Assembly: GCA_000004985.1 (NCBI GenBank)
Contig: GG738905.1
DNA: 64,000 nt
DNA from: Naegleria gruberi
Lineage: Eukaryota
Strand: one strand, 5' to 3'
A program made the position numbers and the translations under genes. A model generated the notes under the pieces. It did not search any database. It was not told the origin of the DNA and saw only the letters and a program-made list of their open reading frames with translations. Below, piece after piece: positions 39,716 through 55,152 of the stretch. The first letter of the stretch is position 1; each line of letters begins with the position of its first letter.

Positions 39716-40471
39716 ATGTGTTGGTCTCTCAGAGCTTCCTTGTTCTTTTCCATCCTAGGAGGATTGATGACTTTGGATCAGATTCGAAGAACACTTGCTA
39801 TTCGAAAGGAGTGGAGAGCACGGAGTATATCTCAAGTATTAATGTACCTGTCGTATACCTTGATGGAATTCCTACAATTTCTACAGTATTGGTTTGGAAT
39901 TGAAGGAACGTGTGGCACCACTTCAAATATTTTCCTGTCAATTGTGGCTCACTTTCTAATTTGGACTCAACCACTGGCACACAATTATTGGTGTTTAAGG
40001 AATACAGCGAAGGGAAGAAGTACTTTCAGATATGCTTTGTTTTGCTCCTTCTCCACCCTAATTCTGGCAAGTATCAGTTTGGCAATGGGTTATTTTCAAG
40101 TTGGTGGATTTGGTGTTGGAATTGAAAATGACAATCTGGAAGGTGTTCCAGGAAATGTTTTGGGAATTGAAATTCAAAATGTGAATACCAAATTGTGTTC
40201 AATGCAAGGACCTAATCATTTATATTGGATGTTTCCCTATCATCCAATATGGGGACATGGCATTTCGTGGTTTACTTGGTTGATGGTTGCTGCATTTCCT
40301 CATTTCTTTAGATATTCAGTTAAGGATAATGATTTCTTTGGAAAGAGTTGGGTGATGGGAAGTGTTGTCGTTGGTGGATGGTTAGTTGCCTTGGCAGTCA
40401 CTTTGACAATTGGCAATTTCCATGAGACACCTTCTTATTGGTGCCTTATTTCAGTTCCATGTTTGGTGTAG
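39716..40471 (+). CDS. hypothetical polytopic membrane protein (251 aa, ~6 TM, W/C-rich)
   Basis: Real ATG. Multiple hydrophobic helices. It ends ~70 nt upstream of the retroelement repeat. Confidence 0.4.
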   Translation: MCWSLRASLFFSILGGLMTLDQIRRTLAIRKEWRARSISQVLMYLSYTLMEFLQFLQYWFGIEGTCGTTSNIFLSIVAHFLIWTQPLAHNYWCLRNTAKGRSTFRYALFCSFSTLILASISLAMGYFQVGGFGVGIENDNLEGVPGNVLGIEIQNVNTKLCSMQGPNHLYWMFPYHPIWGHGISWFTWLMVAAFPHFFRYSVKDNDFFGKSWVMGSVVVGGWLVALAVTLTIGNFHETPSYWCLISVPCLV

Positions 40472-40539: not shown

Positions 40540-40795
40540 AAAGTCTTCATCTTCTGAATATGATTCAAAGAAAGTTGCCTAATTTTTGAGGGATGAGAAT
40601 TGATGGATTGAAAGCCTCCATCTCATTGAGAATGAGCATTGACAATAATAGTGGAATCATTCAATGTCGATTTGAAACTATTTCAAATAAATTTCGAGTT
40701 GGAATCTGCTACTTTTTTTAAGTGTTTGGTGATAAACGTTGGGTCAATTTGTTACTTTCCATTTTGAGGAGTCATGCAGATTTCTTGAATGAAAG
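40540..40795 (+). repeat. terminal repeat A1 of the DIRS-like element
   Basis: About 90% identical to 44976-45236. Both start aaagtcttcatcttctgaatatgattcaaagaaagttgcctaattt and end gatttcttgaatgaaag. Confidence 0.85.
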
Positions 40796-40796
40796 T

Positions 40797-40915
40797 TGAA
40801 GTGAGTACCCCACTCACTAAGGTTTATTGTAAACTACACACACCAATAAATATGAAAAATTTTTGTCTGAAAAAATTTCAACACAGCAAGATGTTAAAAG
40901 ACAAGATTTACGCTC
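40797..40915 (+). repeat. repeat B1
   Basis: ttgaagtgagtaccccactcactaaggtttattgtaaactacacacaccaataaatatgaaaaatttttgtctgaaaaaatttcaacacagcaagatgttaaaagacaagatttacgctc is identical to 44800-44921. Confidence 0.9.
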
Positions 40916-42034
40916 TTATTAAAGAACACTCCAGTGATGTTATGGCTAGTATGCCTCCAAACACCATCAAGATGGTATTGGATCTACTTGGCGAAAACCC
41001 TGAAGACAAAGAAAGATGGCTAGAAATTGTTGAAGACGCAGGTGGTGCGTTATTCAACAACTTCTCAACAAAAGCAGAGGCCCAGGAATACTTTACCAAA
41101 GGTATTAAGAAGTTAGCAAAGAGTGGTAAAGTTGCTTCCACTAGAAGTAAGACTACCTCTTTGCAAGAGGCAAGCACTCCAAGTAACATGAATAAGACTT
41201 CTTCTTCATCTCAAATGGCTACCCCAAAGGTTTCTAGCGTTAGTCAGGTTAGAGAGTTCGTCCAAAAGAGAAGGATTGAAGAAACAGACGACAAGGAGTG
41301 GAAGAGAAGAGGTGTTATTCTTGACCCAGCTGATTTCCTTGAAAAGCCAGCTACTTGGAATCTCCCAAGTAGACAACAATGGGAAGAGATGAACCGCCAA
41401 ATCAACATTTTAGTGGTCGGTAAACAGGTTGAAGAAAAGGTTAAGGAAACGTTTCCGCCATTGAGTACCAATAACCAAGCATTGAAAGCAGAGTACGACA
41501 CCTTGAAAGAGGTCGCAGGAAGCGTCTACGGTGCTGCATTGTTGAACAAGGATGAGTCAGTTGCAGACAAGTTGGAGGGTGCCATTGAATATATCAAGGA
41601 GAAAGCGGTACACCTCAAGCTCGTTTCCTTCGACAAGCATCTTGCGGAGAAGGTTCGTATCATTCGTTCAGATAAGACCTGGAGAGAACAGGCTGACCTT
41701 ATTAAGGTCGCCTCCAAGTTGATGAAGGTAGAAAGTGAAGTGATTAAGAATGGAAACTTGCCAGTCATCAATAATATGACTAAAGCTGTTGAAAAGGCAA
41801 GAGATACCTATCCTGTAGCTTCCCACTGTTTCAAATGCGGAGAAGTTGGACACTTGGCAAAGAATTGCAATAAATCCACTTCCAAATACGTCTCGGTAAG
41901 TACTATTTTTCGATCCTCCAGATGCGGCAGAGATACGGGAGAGGAAACAAGCTGTTCACTCCATTTCGAATGCTTGGAAGGAGTGGAAGAGAAGAGGAGC
42001 GAAACCTTCGATAATAAGGCTCCTGAAAGAGGGT

Positions 42035-43852
42035 GTGAAAGTGCTTCCTTCAACAGGGTTCAAAAGATCAGTGGAGACAGTAAATTCAGCCAAGTTCTCA
42101 ATAAGGGAACTACAGTGGTTGGAAAGGGAGATAAATTTGCTAAAGAAGATTGGTGCATTAGAAGCTTGTCAGAATGCGGAAGTAGTGGCCAAGTTCAGAT
42201 TGGTACCAAAGGGAGAACAGTACAGATTGATTGTAGACTTGAGACCCTTAAACAAATATTGCCTCATCCCCAAATTCAAGTACAACACATTGAAGAGATT
42301 CTTAGAGTTTATTCCAGAATCTGGAACCATGTTCCTATCATCATTCGATTTGAAGTCTGGGTACCACCAGCTAAAAGTCCACAAGGACTCAAGAAAATTT
42401 TTTGCTATCAACTATTTTGGACAATTATTACAGTTTACTGTGTTGCCCTTTGGCTGGAATGGATCACCATAGAACTTCACTTTGGTAATGAATCAAGCGG
42501 TAATTTTGATGGAATCACCACTCATGCGTCTTTCCAATTATTTGGACGATGTGCAAATAGTGAATGTAGTGGAAGAAACAATAGCCGTACAGAATGTAGA
42601 AATATGCAGGGAAGATGCAAACCAGCTTGGTTTAGTGTTAGAGAGAAGAAAGAGTGTAATGAAACCAATGACAGAATTAGTAGTGTTGGGGTCATGTGTG
42701 AATATTATAACGAAGACACTATCAATGACAGAGGCTACGATAGTGAAGATTACGAATATGATAAAATCAGTACTCACGCGGATTCATTTAGGCAAAACAG
42801 TGTCGGTAAGGAAGATGAGTTCGATAAGCGGGACAGTGATTGCTTATTTGGAATGTTTTATCCCAGCAAGGGTGATGCTTGCTCCCATATTCGCCTTAAT
42901 AGCAAAAACAGTAGTGAAGTACGGATGGAAAGCTTCGGTATTCGTAAGGGATGTCAGGGTCATTCACAACCTTCAATGGATTATTGCAAATATAAGGATG
43001 TGGAATGGAAAACACTTCCAGAGGCCATCATTGGTCTATTACTTCTGGACAGATGCATCAGATTGGGGTTGGGGAGCATATTTCGAGGAGAAGGACTTGA
43101 AGATAGGTGGTCAATGGTCGGAACAAGAAAGAAAACTTCATATCCATATAAGAGAAATGTTAGCGGTGTTAAGAGCTTTGATGGAATGGAAGCATTTGTT
43201 CGAAGAGAGAAAGATCATTATTTATGTGGACAATTGGATTATCTTACACAACATTTTAAAGGGATGGGCAAAAAGCCCACTTATGAGAAGGTTAATTATG
43301 AGCTTCTGGAGAATTATATTCAGCCACAATATAACTCTATTGTCTGTGGAATGGTTACCGTCGGAAGAGAATTATATGGCAGACGGGATCAGCAGGGGGA
43401 TAATGAACGATCCCACGGATTGGGAGATGACTATTCCAGCATTTCAAAGGATTCAGAAGGAACTTCTAGTGGAAATAGGATTCGACAGATTCGCTTCCCA
43501 CGTAAGCTTCAAAGTCAAGCCTTACATGGTAAGAGAAAGAAATTTCAGAGGAGAGAAAGCAGACGCCTTCTCTACATTATGGACAGAAGAGGTTGTAAAT
43601 TTGTGTTGCGTCCCATTCAACTTAATAGGAAGAGTATTGAAACATTGCGAAGAATCAAAAGCTATAATGGTGTTGATTCATCCAGTATGGAAGAGAAGGT
43701 TTTGGTGGCCAATTCTAGAAAAGTATCGTATAAGGAGTGTATCGATGAATGGAAAGGACTTCTTTACAAAGTCCAATACAGGTCACGTAGAACCTTGCAA
43801 GAAATCTTGGCTATTAGAGGCAAGTCTGATAGATTGTCGAACTCGGAACTAA
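42035..43852 (+). pseudogene. RT/RNase H ORF of the DIRS-like element, interrupted by one in-frame TAG (~42473)
   Basis: Both sub-ORFs are in the same frame. The stop falls between the LPFGWNGSP motif and the YLDD motif. Otherwise the frame is intact. Confidence 0.7.
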
Positions 43853-44772
43853 TTAGAATTGCCAAGGAGGTCATTAGCTCTCACAGATACAAAGAGAGCA
43901 CTGACAAGAACTACAGAAGATATTGGGTGCGCTTTATTAGATTTAACATTGAAAGAAAGGCTTGTTTTCCTCCTTCAGAAGATAATCTTATTGCTTTCCT
44001 GACGAACATGTTCCTTAAAACACCGTCAGGAAGCAACTGCAGTGCAGCATATGCTGCTATCATGGCATTTGCCAAGAAATTTAGTTTAGATCAGGGAATG
44101 CGAGGAGATAATATTCGAGAAGTTTTAAATGGAATGACTAATCTTTCAAGAGTGGCTAGTGAGAAGGAAAGAAATGCTTGGCAACTAGAATTTATTAGAA
44201 AGTGGGTGAGCATAGGTAGGAGAAGCGTGTCTGACAGAGAATTTGTATTATACACATCTATGATGATCATAGGTCTACGAACTATGTTGAGAGGAAGTGA
44301 ACTTGGTGAACTAAAGACCGAAGATGTTCAATTTCTTCGCTTGGAGAATGGTAAAATGGCAGTCAAATTGAAATGTAGAAGAGTTAAATCTAGTCAGGGT
44401 AGAATGGGTAGAATTATGTGTATAGAGAGTACAGGAAATGATTTGTGCCCAGTATCTTGGTTGAATAGGTGGATGGTGTATAGAGATCAAGGTGATTACT
44501 TATTTGGTAATAGTAAGGCTTTGACTACAATCGACATTTCGTGGATACTGAGATTTGTGGCGTCAGTTATTGGAGTAGATGGATGTTTCTCCTCTCATTC
44601 TTTAAGAATTGGAGGTGCTAATGAAGCAGCTCAAGCAGGTTTTTCTCTCGCTGCTATTCAAGCTTTAGGCAACTGGTCTTCAAATGCGGTTGACAAATAT
44701 TTCAGATCTGAGTTTTTCTATAGTAGAAACGTATCAAAAGAATTGGGTTTCTAGTAGGGGCTCATTGTTTTC

Positions 44773-44849
44773 GTATTTATTGGTGTGTAGTTGGATAAAT
44801 TGAAGTGAGTACCCCACTCACTAAGGTTTATTGTAAACTACACACACCA
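44773..44849 (+). promoter_or_regulatory. 19-bp perfect inverted repeat (tttattggtgtgtagtt(a) / aactacacacaccaataaa), candidate internal complementary region
   Basis: The left arm at ~44775-44793 lies just inside the internal region before B2. Its complement lies inside B2 (and inside B1 at ~40828-40846). A 19-bp stem with a ~31-nt loop. Confidence 0.6.
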
Positions 44850-44921
44850 ATAAATATGAAAAATTTTTGTCTGAAAAAATTTCAACACAGCAAGATGTTA
44901 AAAGACAAGATTTACGCTCCC
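44800..44921 (+). repeat. repeat B2
   Basis: Identical to B1. It is followed by cccacca and then the N-gap. Confidence 0.9.
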
Positions 44922-44925
44922 ACCA

Positions 44926-44975
44926 NNNNNNNNNNNNNNNNNNNNNNNNNNNNNNNNNNNNNNNNNNNNNNNNNN
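44926..44975. other. assembly gap (50 N) between B2 and A2
   Basis: Run of n characters. Confidence 0.98.
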
Positions 44976-45236
44976 AAAGTCTTCATCTTCTGAATATGAT
45001 TCAAAGAAAGTTGCCTAATTTATGAGAATGGATGAGAATGGATGGATTGAAAGCATTTCATCTCATTGAGAATGAGTATTGACAATAATAGTAGAATCAT
45101 TCAATGTCGATTTGAAACTATTTCAAATAAATTTCGTTATTGCAATCTGCCACATTTTTTAAGTGTTTGGTGACAAATGTTGGTCAGTTTGTTATTTTCC
45201 ATTTTTGAGGTGTCACGCCGATTTCTTGAATGAAAG
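44976..45236 (+). repeat. terminal repeat A2
   Basis: Matches A1 with a few substitutions and indels (e.g. ttatgagaatggatgagaatggatgg versus tttttgagggatgagaattgatgg). It starts exactly at the gap edge, so its true 5' extent is unknown. Confidence 0.85.
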
Positions 45237-52294: not shown

Positions 52295-52409
52295 TTTTTT
52301 AAAGTTGACTTGGTTTGTGATTGATGTTTAGATTCCATTATTGAAATTACAATAAATTCATTGATAAGCATTAAATTGCTAGTTTAAATTACAAATTTAT
52401 AGTACACAA

Positions 52410-53490
52410 TTATTGGAATGGTTGTGGAGGATATCCCATTTGAGGTGGGTAACCCATTTGAGGTGGGTAACCCATTTGAGGTTGTTGAGGGTAACCTTGC
52501 ATTGGCTGTTGTGGATAGCCTTGCATTGGTTGTTGAGGATAACCTTGCATTGGTGGTTGTTGTGGATAACCTTGTTGCATTTGAGGGTAACCTTGCATTG
52601 GTGGTTGTTGTGGATATTGTTGATAACCCATTTGAGGTTGTTGTTGGGGATAACCTTGCATTGGTTGTTGTTGAGGGTAGCCCATTGGTTGTTGAGGATA
52701 TCCATAACCTTGCACTCCCTGTGGTTGATAACCCATTGGTTGTTGTTGTTGTTGTTGTGGATAACCATAACCTTGAACTGGTGGACCTTGATTGAGTGGT
52801 TGTGATTGAGTAACTGATTGAGTTGGCATGGCTTGTCCAAAATCTTCAGCCAACAATTCCACAGTCAAAGTACCCAACTTGGAATATTGCAATTTGAGAT
52901 CGACACGTTGTGGTTGTCCCTTATATAAAGTTCCCAAAGCAACTGTTGCCTTACCAATAATATCATTTCCTCCAAAACGATCATAATCATAAACTTCAAA
53001 GACAGCACTTTCACTGGCTGGATTAACAGAAGGAGGCAAATCAAAGAACAAGGTTGTGTTCCATGTTGGATTGCAATTTTTGCTGATGTGATCAGTCTTT
53101 CTTTGAACGGAACCAATTGTTACTCTAACATATGGATCTAAATAGTATTAATTAATTAATATATAATGATGATGATAATGAATGATTATTAATATATATA
53201 TGAATAATATTTGTTAACCAATCACAAAATCATTGTTAATGTACAAAACAATATTAAATATATTAAAATCGATTGTACATTGTAGTTGAATAACACAAAT
53301 AATATAAGAAATATTTCATTGTTATAAGAAATTCATCATCATGGATGTAACATCACCAAAATTCATCATCATCATCACATGTAAAATTAAATCATCATCA
53401 AATTCGCATCATCAACCTACCAGAAGTACCACCAACATCCTTTCCTTCCAAATTTCTAGCAGAAATAACAGTAATCTTGAGTTTGCCCAT
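52410..53490 (-). CDS. C2-domain protein, member 3 (2 exons) with QGYPQQP repeat tail
   Basis: Exon 1 is 53490..53421 ([24 protein letters not shown], donor tctg|gtaggtt). ~283-nt AT-rich intron. Exon 2 is 53137..52410 ([27 protein letters not shown]...). Confidence 0.75.
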
Positions 53491-53708
53491 TCTTTGTGTG
53501 TCTATTTTTTGCTAAAGTTTCCATTCCGTGTTGCTTGTTTGAGAAACTCATCGCGTTTCATGTGTTTTATAAATAAGAATGGATCGCTCATGTTCATGTG
53601 TGTATTTTTACCGCCAAAAAAAACTACAATATGAACTTTGTTTTATTCCTTACCTCTGGGGTTGATGATGGGAATGTAAAATTATAATTTAATATAACAG
53701 TTAGTTTA

Positions 53709-54080
53709 TTAAGTTTGACTTGGATGAGGAGAACCTCTCAAGTGAGGAAGAATAGTATGATGTTGGGAATGATGAGGTTTGAAATGAGAAATAATTGGTC
53801 TGATTATATGATGAGAACCAAATACTTTGAATGGTGGTTGGACGGTATCACCCGATTGTTGTGGTGTAGGAATGGAAATTTGTGGCAATTGTTCTTGTTG
53901 GACGGTATCACCTGATTGTTGAGGGGTTGGAATGGAAACTTGTGGTAATTGTTCTTGTTGGACAGTATCGCCTGATTGTTGTGGAGTTGGAATGGAAATT
54001 TGTGGAAGTTGGCAATCAACTAAACAATTGGCAATAATGAAGCATGAAATGAATAGCAAGAGAATGAGAAATTTAGTCAT
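53709..54080 (-). CDS. small secreted protein with three tandem 20-aa repeats (QLPQxSIPTPQQSGDTVQQE) and His-rich C-terminus
   Basis: Signal peptide MTKFLILLLFISCFIIANC. Three near-perfect 60-nt DNA repeats at ~53835-54010. HH/HSQHH tail. Real ATG, single exon. Confidence 0.55.
   Translation of the reverse strand: MTKFLILLLFISCFIIANCLVDCQLPQISIPTPQQSGDTVQQEQLPQVSIPTPQQSGDTVQQEQLPQISIPTPQQSGDTVQPPFKVFGSHHIIRPIISHFKPHHSQHHTILPHLRGSPHPSQT
53835..54010. repeat. 3 x 60-bp tandem repeat (coding)
   Basis: ggtatcacc(c/t)gattgttg(t/a)gg(t/g)gt(a/t)ggaatggaaa(t/c)ttgtgg(c/t)aattgttcttgttggac is repeated with 2-4 substitutions per unit. Confidence 0.8.
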
Positions 54081-54383
54081 CTTTTTTGAAAATGTTACTA
54101 ATACCTTTTCATTCTTCCTGAATTTGAATCATTGTAATGCCAATGAACAATGTTAAATTGATATGTTTCGTTTAAGGATATTTACAGTTTAAAGATTTTT
54201 CCCAAGAGAGGATTTGGACACTTTGGTATTTTCAAGCAGATGGTAATGTTATATTTATATAGTAATTCATCTTTTGTGAAGTTAGAAATCCAACTGTTTG
54301 TGACCTCTGCGTGTTAGAAGAAGAAGGAGAACTATATAAGGAAGATAATGTATTATTTACACAATTTCAAGAAGAAATTCAAA

Positions 54384-55152
54384 TTATTGATATGGTGGAT
54401 ATCCTTGTTGAGGAGGATATTGTTGTGGTGGATATTGTTGTGGGTATCCTTGTTGTGGTGGAAAACCACCTTGTTGTGGGTATCCTTGTTCAGGAGGATA
54501 GCCATATCCTTGCATTGGAGGTTGTCCATAGTATGGTTGTTGTGGATATCCTTGTTGTGGTGGATACATTTGTTGTTGAGGGTAACCTTGTTGAGGGTAA
54601 CCTTGTTGAGGATATCCTTGTTGTTGTGGTGGAAAACCACCTTGTTGTGGATTAGTTGTGGTTTGAGTAGTAGTTGGTATGGCTTGTCCAAAATCTTCTG
54701 CCAACAATTCAACAGATAAGATTCCATTCCTTGAGTTGGCCAACCTTAAATCAACTTTTTGAGCGTGTCCTTTGTAAAGTGTTCCCAAAGCAATTGTTGC
54801 TCTTCCAATCAAGTCAGAAGATCCCAAACGATCATAATCAAAAACTTCAAAAGAAGCTGATTCTGTGGCTGGGTTGACACTTGGTGGCAAATCAAAGAAG
54901 AGAGAAGTATTCCAAGTTGGATTAGTAGTCTTGGTCAAGTGGTCAGTCTTGTGTTTAATTGTTCCAACAGAAACAACAACAAAAGGATCTATTCAGTGTT
55001 TAAAATATGATATTATTATTCAGTAGGATTATACAGATGTAAGTGTAATGATCAATGAAATTGTTTAAATAGTAACACCTACCTGATGTACCTCCAATAT
55101 CCTTTCCTTCTAAATCACGTGCAGAAATGATGGTTACTTTAAGTTTGCCCAT
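54384..55152 (-). CDS. C2-domain protein, member 4 (2 exons) with GYPQQ repeat tail
   Basis: Exon 1 is 55152..55083 ([24 protein letters not shown], donor catcag|gtaggtg). ~94-nt intron. Exon 2 is 54988..54384 ([27 protein letters not shown]...). Confidence 0.75.

What the first reader, a model, noticed from the sequence alone, without database searches (positions are those of the whole stretch)
44773..44849. ICR-like 19-bp inverted complement at the 3' internal end of the retroelement
tttattggtgtgtagtt sits immediately upstream of B2. Its exact complement aactacacacaccaataaa lies inside B (both copies). In DIRS1 an internal complementary region near the 3' end pairs with the terminal repeats to form the circular replication template. 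A short complementary segment placed exactly here suggests an analogous mechanism despite the direct-repeat termini.
Basis: partly seen in the sequence, partly recalled or inferred. Interest (0 to 1): 0.6.

Follow-up and report, generated by a model that had tools for sequence, protein, structure and literature searches.

The report
Junction hairpin of a Naegleria DIRS retrotransposon
The short inverted complement is real but not exact: it is the outer stem of a 95-base hairpin spanning the point where the 3' internal end of a Naegleria gruberi tyrosine-recombinase retrotransposon meets a repeated copy of its own 5' end, and related elements have a similar hairpin at that point.

Summary
The window is Naegleria gruberi DNA. 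The element (40796 to at least 44925) is a DIRS-order retrotransposon: Gag with a zinc knuckle, RT/RNase H/methylase-like ORF, and tyrosine recombinase (YR).

The complement exists but is not an exact 19 bp. The perfect run is 15 bp. The full stem is 25 bp with one G.U pair and one bulge.

That stem is the base of a 95-nt extended hairpin (44768-44862; RNA z = -7.7). It is the strongest single hairpin in the window outside a tandem-repeat gene. The hairpin spans the joint (44799|44800) between the internal 3' end and the second copy of the 5' terminus.

Close metagenomic relatives conserve the left arm (L001, L004) or carry their own hairpin there (L005). Distant relatives with split direct repeats have a covarying hairpin across the same joint: 9 of 20 pairs show compensatory changes.

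"ICR-like" is therefore right in logic, because this is an internal replica of the joined termini with complementary ends. A strict DIRS1-type ICR is not supported: no inverted terminal repeats were found, and the complementarity is inexact in a copy whose repeats are identical. The 3' terminus lies in an assembly gap, so the mechanism is inferred.

The parts
40540..40795 (+). 5' flank X1. It is duplicated, about 93% identical with indels, as X2 after the gap.
   Evidence: X1 and X2 agree up to ...GAATGAAAG and then diverge. This fixes the 5' end of the element at 40796.
40796..40915 (+). 5' copy (A1) of the direct repeat. It is 120/120 identical to 44800-44919 and holds the apical stem-loop, the right-arm sequence, an AATAAA and the first in-element gag ATG (40852).
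40800..40818 (+). Apical stem-loop AGTGAGT-ACCCC-ACTCACT at the extreme 5' end of the element
   Evidence: two exact copies in the window, about 0.01 expected by chance
40832..40858 (+). 5' copy of the right-arm sequence AACTACACACACCAATAAATATGAAAA
   Evidence: (I5)
40852..41899 (+). Gag-like region with a CCHC zinc knuckle at 41824-41871. It lies in the frame of the 1321-aa ORF 40789-44754. The 3' limit is approximate and is set at the point where the pol frame opens.
41900..43852 (+). pol ORF in a second frame. It holds RT (RVT_1, 42209-42469), one in-frame stop at 42470-42472, RNase H (43040-43237) and a Dam-methylase-like domain (43406-43822).
43786..44754 (+). Tyrosine recombinase: SAM-like N-terminal domain at 43858-44079, catalytic domain at 44257-44700, stop codon at 44752-44754
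44755..44767 (+). Start of the 3' UTR, including the conserved block CTCATTGTT.TCG (44761-44773), which runs into the left arm
44768..44792 (+). Left arm (outer stem, 5' strand) TTTTCGTATTTATTGGTGTGTAGTT.
   Evidence: (I6). It is conserved in L001 and L004.
44793..44835 (+). Inner part of the hairpin: middle helix 44794-44801 with 44825-44832, and apical stem-loop 44804-44822. The internal joint between B1 and A2 lies at 44799|44800, inside the middle helix.
44836..44862 (+). Right arm (outer stem, 3' strand), inside the 3' repeat copy. It contains AATAAA at 44849-44854.
44800..44919 (+). 3' copy (A2) of the direct repeat. The next 6 bases (44920-44925) differ from the 5' copy only by four T-to-C changes and abut the gap.
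44926..44975 (.). 50-N assembly gap that hides whatever follows A2: a B2 terminus, a second tandem unit, or the 3' flank
44976..45236 (+). X2, the second copy of the 5' flank. It is followed by sequence Y with no element, so X2|Y is a paralogous or allelic empty site.

Best explanation
Shown. The element is a DIRS-order retrotransposon of Naegleria gruberi. It carries Gag with a zinc knuckle, RT/RNase H with a Dam-like domain, and a tyrosine recombinase (YR). Its first 120 nt (A) recur directly after the 3' UTR. The last ~32 nt before that second copy (B, 44768-44799) are the imperfect inverse complement of nt 30-63 of A. The first ~25 nt of A form a small stem-loop on their own. Wherever B is joined to A, a 95-nt extended hairpin therefore forms, with the joint inside its middle helix.

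Inferred. B|A is the internal replica of the joined element termini. In split-direct-repeat elements (A1-ORFs-B1A2B2) this is the counterpart of the DIRS1 internal complementary region. Because B and the start of A are complementary, the two ends of a linear single-stranded replication intermediate, which starts in A and ends in B, can pair with each other. That pairing would place the ends side by side as a nicked stem-loop. End-joining or template switching could then create the circle junction that the YR uses for integration. Wobble pairs favour the plus-sense strand, so the structure probably acts in the genomic RNA, or less likely in plus-strand DNA.
For: Organism: exact matches to three N. 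gruberi proteins.

Domains.

Hairpin strength: (z = -7.7; strongest single hairpin outside the tandem-repeat gene).

Exact 5' boundary at 40796 and internal joint at 44799|44800.

Close relatives (YR 42-52% identical):
- The non-coding left arm is conserved in L001 and L004, with 2/2000 and 1/2000 shuffles scoring as well. Identity there is about 84%, against 65-70% in coding DNA.
- L005 has its own extended hairpin about 30 nt after the YR stop codon, z = -4.8.
- The apical stems differ but stay complementary: GTGAG/CTCAC, GTATG/CATAC and GGAAGC/GCTTCC, read.

Distant relatives (RT 25-28% identical):
- A two-tier hairpin spans the B|A joint in many families.
- An 11-family alignment gives 20 pairs, 92.7% of cells paired against 39-49% when partners are slid, and 9 pairs with changes on both sides against 1-3. 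None of 500 shuffles reached the observed values.
- A covariance model finds the structure in 24 of 80 loci, always in the sense orientation. This includes L033 and L014, which were not used to build the model.
- Copies followed by unrelated flanks end just after the inner hairpin. This shows that the joint coincides with the element terminus.

Strand bias: the Naegleria hairpin has 4 G.U pairs and folds at -42.6 kcal/mol on the plus strand against -33.3 on the minus strand. In the distant set there are 13 G.U cells against 4 A.C cells.

Literature: the DIRS-1 ICR is essential and acts after first-strand synthesis, and the intermediates are linear single-stranded cDNA (PMC7192593). The A1-[ORFs]-B1A2B2 layout is described in PMC8547959.
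Against: The 3' terminus of this copy is hidden in the gap. B2, and so the claim that the element's two ends are complementary, is not observed for Naegleria. It is extrapolated from distant relatives.

Only one Naegleria copy is available, and every close-relative contig stops inside or at the hairpin.

The distant relatives' hairpin model does not match the Naegleria hairpin. The arrangement is also mirrored: the apical stem-loop is on the A side in Naegleria and on the B side in the distant relatives. The two structures could be convergent.

The known DIRS-1 intermediate is the antisense cDNA, whereas the wobble bias points to the sense strand. Shuffle z-scores are as good on the minus strand, so the strand assignment is weak.

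Covariation cannot separate a folded strand from a symmetric protein-binding site.

No experiment bears on any of this.
Confidence: 0.5

Rival explanations
1. Cis-acting RNA stem-loop of the 3' UTR. In this reading the hairpin is recognised by the element's RT or Gag for initiation of reverse transcription (snap-back or protein-guided priming), for packaging, or for 3'-end formation. Its position at the B|A joint would be incidental.
For: The hairpin starts 14 nt after the YR stop codon. Wobble pairs favour the sense strand. The loop sequence is strongly conserved in distant relatives (G.TTGAGC..GCGAATTAG), as expected for a protein-recognised loop. AAUAAA lies in the right arm at 44849-44854, so a transcript could end just past the base of the hairpin. 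A 3' hairpin has been proposed as the DIRS-1 primer, as cited in PMC7192593.
Against: In DIRS-1, deleting the ICR did not prevent cDNA synthesis (PMC7192593). In distant relatives the joint falls at a fixed place in the hairpin, and the outer stem exists only when B is joined to A. This ties the structure to the termini rather than to the 3' UTR as such. Transcript ends are unknown.
Confidence: 0.25
2. Double-stranded palindromic recombination site. In this reading the inverted arms are symmetric binding sites for a YR dimer at the circle junction, and nothing folds.
For: Tyrosine recombinases typically act on inverted half-sites. The apical AGTGAGT-N5-ACTCACT looks like a core site. Concerted change of both half-sites would mimic covariation. 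Minus-strand z-scores are as good as plus-strand ones.
Against: The joint (44799|44800) is 13 nt off the symmetry centre and outside the apical spacer. The arms total 25+8+7 bp, far longer than known YR half-sites. Four G.U pairs in Naegleria, and 13 G.U against 4 A.C cells in relatives, would be mismatched half-sites in duplex DNA.
Confidence: 0.12
3. True DIRS1-type ICR. In this reading the segment is a splint complementary to the termini of an element with inverted terminal repeats, and the right ITR is hidden in the assembly gap.
For: The segment is the inverse complement of the 5' terminus and lies near the 3' end. A left ICR followed by a right ICR would itself be a near-palindrome, which follows from the description in PMC3266345. 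Piednoel et al. assigned the N. gruberi elements to the DIRS1-like group by TBLASTX (PMC3266345). Long ORF overlap, a DIRS1-like trait, is present.
Against: The complementarity is inexact (15 bp perfect, one mismatch, a 2-nt indel) in a copy whose repeats are 120/120 identical. The DIRS-1 ICR is exactly complementary (PMC7192593). The direct repeat runs at least 57 nt beyond the hairpin, into gag. No inverted copy of A occurs anywhere in the window. None of the related loci examined shows inverted terminal repeats. They show direct or split repeats.
Confidence: 0.1
4. Chance match, or an artefact of assembly or rearrangement peculiar to this copy.
For: There is only one copy in the window. An assembly gap and low-quality bases lie 60 nt downstream.
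Against: None of 200 shuffles fold as well. The right arm and apical stem are identical in the 5' copy, 4 kb away. The left arm is conserved in independent metagenomic relatives. Analogous covarying hairpins occur in other families.
Confidence: 0.03

Closest known systems
Internal complementary region (ICR) of DIRS1-like retrotransposons (Dictyostelium DIRS-1)
   Same: Both are an internal sequence just upstream of the 3' terminal repeat that carries the information of the joined element termini. Both contain the inverse complement of the 5' terminus. A left ICR next to a right ICR is itself a near-palindrome with an off-centre junction. The host element has the same gene set (Gag, RT/RH, methylase-like domain, YR) and long ORF overlap.
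   Different: The DIRS-1 ICR is exactly complementary to both termini, and its element has inverted terminal repeats. Here the complementarity is imperfect, the sequence that follows is a direct copy of the 5' end, and no ITR is seen. The pairing here would be directly between the two termini (B with A), not between each terminus and a separate splint.
Split direct repeats (A1-[ORFs]-B1A2B2) of PAT-like and Ngaro elements
   Same: The 5' terminus is repeated directly downstream of the YR gene. The B1|A2 joint equals the joined termini. Gag has a zinc knuckle, as in Pat1-like elements. Distant relatives fetched here show B copies at the 3' terminus and B|A joints internally.
   Different: No paper in the searchable library describes B as complementary to the start of A, or a conserved hairpin across B|A. 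B2 cannot be seen in this copy. The element has a methylase-like domain, so it is not Ngaro.
Folded single-stranded recombination sites of tyrosine recombinases (integron attC, CTX-phage attP). This comparison rests on my own knowledge.
   Same: All are imperfect palindromes of 60-140 nt that are conserved in structure rather than sequence, carry bulged bases and show strand bias. All are associated with a YR and a single-stranded intermediate.
   Different: There is no evidence that the DIRS YR acts on a folded strand. No sequence relation exists. This is an analogy only.

Membership tests
DIRS order (tyrosine-recombinase retrotransposons) | Reverse transcretase and RNase H domains | tested here: met
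   RVT_1 E = 7.9e-7 (29.4 bits, just under Pfam's 29.6 cutoff) and RT_RNaseH E = 1.1e-7 in the second-frame ORF. The RT is 54% identical to P0001, which has a full RVT_1 match.
DIRS order (tyrosine-recombinase retrotransposons) | Tyrosine recombinase in place of a DDE integrase | tested here: met
   Phage_integrase E = 2.8e-9, above the curated cutoff, plus a weaker SAM-like N-terminal domain match (21.7 bits, below the 27-bit cutoff), at the C-terminus of the 1321-aa ORF. No integrase (rve) hit was found.
DIRS sensu stricto (DIRS1-like plus PAT-like, as opposed to Ngaro and VIPER) | Methyltransferase-like (Dam-like) domain after RNase H | tested here: met
   There is no direct Pfam hit. However, the last 140 aa of pol align (E = 7e-15) to residues 473-608 of P0003, which is that protein's PF05869 Dam domain at 477-585.
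DIRS1-like | Inverted terminal repeats | tested here: inconclusive
   No inverted copy of the 5' terminus longer than the hairpin arm occurs in the window. The 3' terminus lies in the 50-N gap.
DIRS1-like | ICR exactly complementary to the outer ends of both termini | tested here: not met
   The complement to the 5' terminus is imperfect (15 bp perfect; mismatch and 2-nt indel) even though the repeats are 120/120 identical. The complement to the 3' terminus cannot be tested.
DIRS1-like | Long overlap of the YR ORF with the pol ORF | tested here: met
   The 1321-aa ORF 40789-44754 stays open across the whole pol ORF 41900-43852, which is in another frame. P0056 in L004 behaves in the same way.
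PAT-like / split direct repeats | A1 at the 5' end repeated as A2 downstream of the ORFs | tested here: met
   40796-40915 equals 44800-44919, 120/120 identical.
PAT-like / split direct repeats | B1 (before A2) repeated as B2 at the 3' terminus | not testable with these tools
   The sequence after A2 is lost in the gap at 44926-44975. No other copy could be retrieved.
Pat1-like | Zinc finger in Gag | tested here: met
   zf-CCHC E = 2.9e-5, above the cutoff, at aa 346-361.
Junction hairpin family of the distant DIRS-like loci (model R1) | Match to the covariance model: two-tier stem with loop G.TTGAGC..GCGAATTAG | tested here: not met
   With filters off, no match at the hairpin site in the window or in L001-L006. 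The best window hit is elsewhere, at E = 0.26. The Naegleria hairpin is analogous in position and logic, but homology is not demonstrable.

The most novel reading that the evidence does not exclude
Complementarity between the two element termini may be a general and so far undescribed requirement of DIRS-order elements. It would produce a conserved, strand-biased hairpin across the joined ends. It would also be the common principle behind the two known architectures, ITR plus ICR and split direct repeats. A palindromic junction reads almost the same in direct and in complementary copy, so the two architectures could interconvert through it. The Naegleria element, whose apical stem-loop is on the A side, would then be one of the 'intermediate forms' that Szitenberg et al. 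(PMC4157794) said are not observed. A bolder version is that the folded single strand is itself the YR substrate, as with integron attC or CTX-phage attP.
Probability: 0.2. Interest if true: 0.8.

Novelty: new variant of a known kind. Interest (0 to 1): 0.55.

Why it matters
How DIRS-order retrotransposons turn a sub-genomic RNA into an integrable circle is still largely a 1985 model. Only one element, DIRS-1, has been tested by experiment, and in it the ICR proved essential. If split-direct-repeat relatives carry a covarying hairpin exactly across the internal copy of their joined ends, then the ICR and the B1A2 repeat would be two versions of one device. That device has a defined, mutable structure, and disrupting and then restoring its arms gives a direct test. 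It would also supply a structural signature for finding and delimiting these poorly annotated elements. In addition, this is to my knowledge the first description of the 5' boundary and internal repeats of a Naegleria DIRS element. The 3' terminus is still missing.

Tried and rejected
- **Other copies of the element.** None is in the window. Exact look-ups of the 1321-aa and 456-aa ORFs found nothing on record. A homology search with the whole 1321-aa ORF found nothing. A look-up of the paralogous neighbour protein P0065 found nothing.
- **Collection scans for close relatives.** All were empty: YR alignment against metagenome, genome and viral contigs, and a DNA pattern of conserved 3' UTR blocks against genome and viral contigs.
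- **Close-relative contigs.** L001, L004, L005 and L006 all stop 46-101 nt after the YR stop codon. The right arm is visible only in L005. P0057 had no DNA available.
- **L002/L003.** This is a degraded element without a YR and was not informative.
- **First scan for inverted repeats next to the YR stop in distant loci.** It used blastn-short at E <= 0.05 and missed almost all junction hairpins. They were found only by folding around the A2 start.
- **MAFFT alignment of the Naegleria, L005 and L001 hairpins.** It is not structure-aware, so no formal pair count was possible for the close clade. The compensatory apical stems were read by eye.
- **Rfam.** Only sub-threshold matches to generic long miRNA hairpins. 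No tRNA or primer-binding-site candidate was found.
- **Covariance model of the distant hairpin.** It does not match the Naegleria hairpin.
- **X1/X2 as part of the element.** I considered an LTR, SDR or tandem unit that includes X1/X2 and rejected it. The order X-A-internal-A-gap-X fits none of these, and X2 continues into unrelated DNA exactly where X1 meets the element.
- **Internal hairpin at 43990-44036.** It is not conserved in relatives.

Full report
**Source and host element**

Three window ORFs are identical to annotated Naegleria gruberi proteins on a 290,827-bp scaffold. The finding sits at the 3' end of a retroelement on the plus strand.

- A 1321-aa ORF (40789-44754) carries a CCHC zinc knuckle and, at its C-terminus, a tyrosine recombinase (YR) with a weaker SAM-like N-terminal domain match.
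- A second frame (41900-43852, with one in-frame stop at 42470-42472) encodes RT and RNase H.
- The last 140 residues of that second-frame ORF align, at E = 7e-15, with the Pfam Dam-methylase domain of a distant homologue.
- The long ORF stays open across the whole pol ORF. Piednoel et al. list this long overlap as typical of DIRS1-like elements (PMC3266345).

The element therefore belongs to the methylase-bearing part of the DIRS order (DIRS1-like or PAT-like) and is not Ngaro or VIPER. Piednoel et al. detected seven degraded DIRS-like sequences in N. gruberi but did not describe their termini.

**Repeats and boundaries**

- 40796-40915 is repeated at 44800-44919 with 120/120 identity.
- The next six bases differ only by four T-to-C changes and abut a 50-N gap at 44926-44975. 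I read these bases as low-quality contig end, so the repeat may continue. This is an inference.
- The 256 bp upstream of the element (X1) recur after the gap as X2, about 93% identical with indels. X2 runs into unrelated DNA exactly where X1 meets the element.
- I read X2|Y as a paralogous or allelic empty site placed into the scaffold. That is also an inference.
- Whatever its origin, the comparison fixes the 5' end of the element at 40796 (TTGAAGTGAG...). It also fixes the internal joint between the 3' UTR and the second repeat copy at 44799|44800.
- What follows the second copy cannot be seen. It could be a B2 terminus, a second tandem unit, or flank.

**The observation**

They are a 17-mer and a 19-mer that differ by an AC dinucleotide, so they are not exact complements.

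- The perfect run is 15 bp.
- The full outer stem is 44768-44792 with 44836-44862: 25 bp, one G.U pair and one 2-nt bulge.
- Inside it lie an 8-bp middle helix with three G.U pairs and a 7-bp apical stem (AGTGAGT-ACCCC-ACTCACT).
- Together these make a 95-nt hairpin (z = -7.7; z = -6.3 as minus-strand DNA).
- In a scan of all 64 kb, only windows inside a tandem-repeat coding region fold better.
- The joint at 44799|44800 lies inside the middle helix, 13 nt to the left of the symmetry centre.
- The 5' copy of the repeat carries the apical stem-loop and the right arm but has no left arm nearby.
- The right arm contains AATAAA and the first in-element ATG of the gag frame.

**Close relatives**

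Protein searches found only unannotated metagenomic relatives: RT 53-54% identical (L001, L002/L003) and YR 42-52% identical (L001, L004, L005, L006). All of these contigs end 46-101 nt after the YR stop codon.

- The non-coding stretch after the stop codon is alignable between the window and L001 and L004. The shared blocks are CTCA.TGTT.TCG, TTTATT, a GT-rich run and TTGGATAAAT. Only 2/2000 and 1/2000 shuffles score as well. Identity is about 84%, higher than the 65-70% seen in coding DNA.
- L005 is a 5'-truncated copy next to a kinase gene. It has its own 66-nt extended hairpin about 30 nt after the stop codon (z = -4.8), with arms of different sequence.
- Where the left halves align, the apical stems are GTGAG/CTCAC (window), GTATG/CATAC (L001) and GGAAGC/GCTTCC (L005). 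These are compensated changes, but I read them by eye, and the L001 stem is weak.

**Distant relatives**

A metagenome scan with an RT alignment returned 80 loci at 25-28% identity. Many have a downstream YR and direct, split or tandem repeats, but none has inverted termini.

- Folding around the start of the downstream repeat copy showed a hairpin across the joint in several families.
- A shared motif then became apparent. It consists of an outer-left arm, an inner stem, a conserved loop (G.TTGAGC..GCGAATTAG), the inner-right strand, then the joint, then an outer-right arm made of the first 12-20 nt of the repeat.
- Copies followed by unrelated flanks (L016-L019, L040, L041, L043, L042:4967, L065) diverge directly after the inner-right strand. 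The joint is therefore the element's 3' terminus abutted to its 5' terminus.
- An alignment of 11 families gives a 20-pair consensus with 9 pairs changed on both sides.
- In that alignment 92.7% of cells are paired, against 39-49% when partners are slid. Nine compensated pairs compare with 1-3 in the slid controls. None of 500 shuffles reached the observed values.
- A covariance model finds the structure in 24 of the 80 loci, always in the sense orientation. These include L033 and L014, which were not used to build it and which fold the same way with different stem sequences.
- The model does not match the Naegleria hairpin. In Naegleria the apical stem-loop lies on the 5'-terminus side of the joint, and in the distant set it lies on the 3'-terminus side. 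The two structures share position and logic, but homology is not demonstrable.

**Which strand**

The Naegleria hairpin has four G.U pairs and no A.C mismatches. It folds at -42.6 kcal/mol as sense RNA against -33.3 as antisense. The distant set has 13 G.U cells against 4 A.C cells, and lower sense-strand energies in nearly all families. Shuffle z-scores are as good on the antisense strand. The sense-strand preference is therefore suggestive only.

**Interpretation**

In split-direct-repeat elements (A1-[ORFs]-B1A2B2; PMC8547959, PMC4157794), B1A2 equals the sequence that joining the termini would create. In DIRS1 the ICR is the complement of that same junction, is exactly complementary to the termini, and is essential at a step after first-strand synthesis (PMC7192593).

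I take this as the most likely function: holding the ends together so that the junction used by the YR can be formed. The plus-sense RNA is the likelier carrier. This step is inferred and has not been shown.

The alternatives cannot be excluded. One is a priming, packaging or 3'-end signal in the RNA. The other is a symmetric duplex site for the recombinase.

The strict DIRS1 reading is disfavoured for three reasons. The arms are imperfect although the repeats are identical. The hairpin is followed by a direct repeat rather than an inverted one. No relative shows inverted termini.

**Novelty and limits**

No paper in the searchable library links split direct repeats with a hairpin or stem-loop at the joint. 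The primary descriptions by Goodwin and Poulter are not in that library, so prior description cannot be excluded.

The main weaknesses are as follows:
- There is only one Naegleria copy, and its 3' end is missing.
- The close relatives are truncated at the critical place.
- The clade-wide evidence comes from a distant lineage whose hairpin is not alignable to this one.

Noticed in passing
window 40540-40795 and 44976-45236, with the gap at 44926-44975: The 256 bp upstream of the element recur after the 50-N gap, about 93% identical with indels, and then run into DNA with no element. This is probably a haplotype or paralog duplication introduced at a heterozygous insertion. The neighbouring gene (39716-40471) also has a copy at least 90% identical on another N. 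gruberi scaffold (P0065).
   Followed up: partly
window 44916-44925: The last bases before the gap read CCCACCA where the 5' repeat copy reads CTTATTA. All four differences are T to C, which looks like low-quality read end. The direct repeat may therefore be longer than 120 nt.
   Followed up: partly
window 40789-44754 and 41900-43852: A single 1321-codon frame joins Gag and YR and stays open across the whole RT/RNase H/methylase-like ORF, which is in another frame, in a genome of about 34% GC. The pol frame has one in-frame stop at 42470-42472. It is unclear whether the middle of the long ORF is translated.
   Followed up: partly
window 43990-44036: A strong inverted repeat (TTGCTTTCCTGACG ... 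CGTCAGGAAGCAA; -21 to -26 kcal/mol) lies inside the most conserved YR N-terminal motif (IAFLTNMFLKTPSGSNC). The homologous stretches of L001, L004, L005 and L006 do not fold, so it is specific to this copy.
   Followed up: yes
L015-L074 (for example L042:4474-4563, L053:54-140, L033:4202-4288): The junction hairpin of the distant DIRS-like metagenomic elements has a nearly invariant loop, TTCG.TTGAGC(N)GCGAATTAGAA. It also has a conserved AT-rich joint (...TAAA|TGTATTT...). In one family ATAAA occurs at both element ends, which suggests a short crossover core.
   Followed up: partly
window 40845-40854 and 44849-44858: The right arm contains AATAAA followed by the first in-element ATG of the gag frame (40852). 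A TTTATT lies on the left arm. The hairpin would mask a possible poly(A) signal at the 3' copy only.
   Followed up: no
L005:1-3517: This relative has only the YR gene and the 3' hairpin. It lies 375 nt downstream of a protein-kinase gene, so it is a 5'-truncated or YR-only copy.
   Followed up: no
L002:3560-4456 and L003: This relative has Gag and RT, but its YR region is replaced by scrambled short duplications. It is a degraded or non-autonomous derivative.
   Followed up: partly
window 52400-54700: Long imperfect tandem repeats of GGTTGTTG/GGATAACC-type units lie here. They probably encode a Q/P/Y/G-rich repeat protein on the minus strand. They give the only folds in the window more stable than the junction hairpin.
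   Followed up: no
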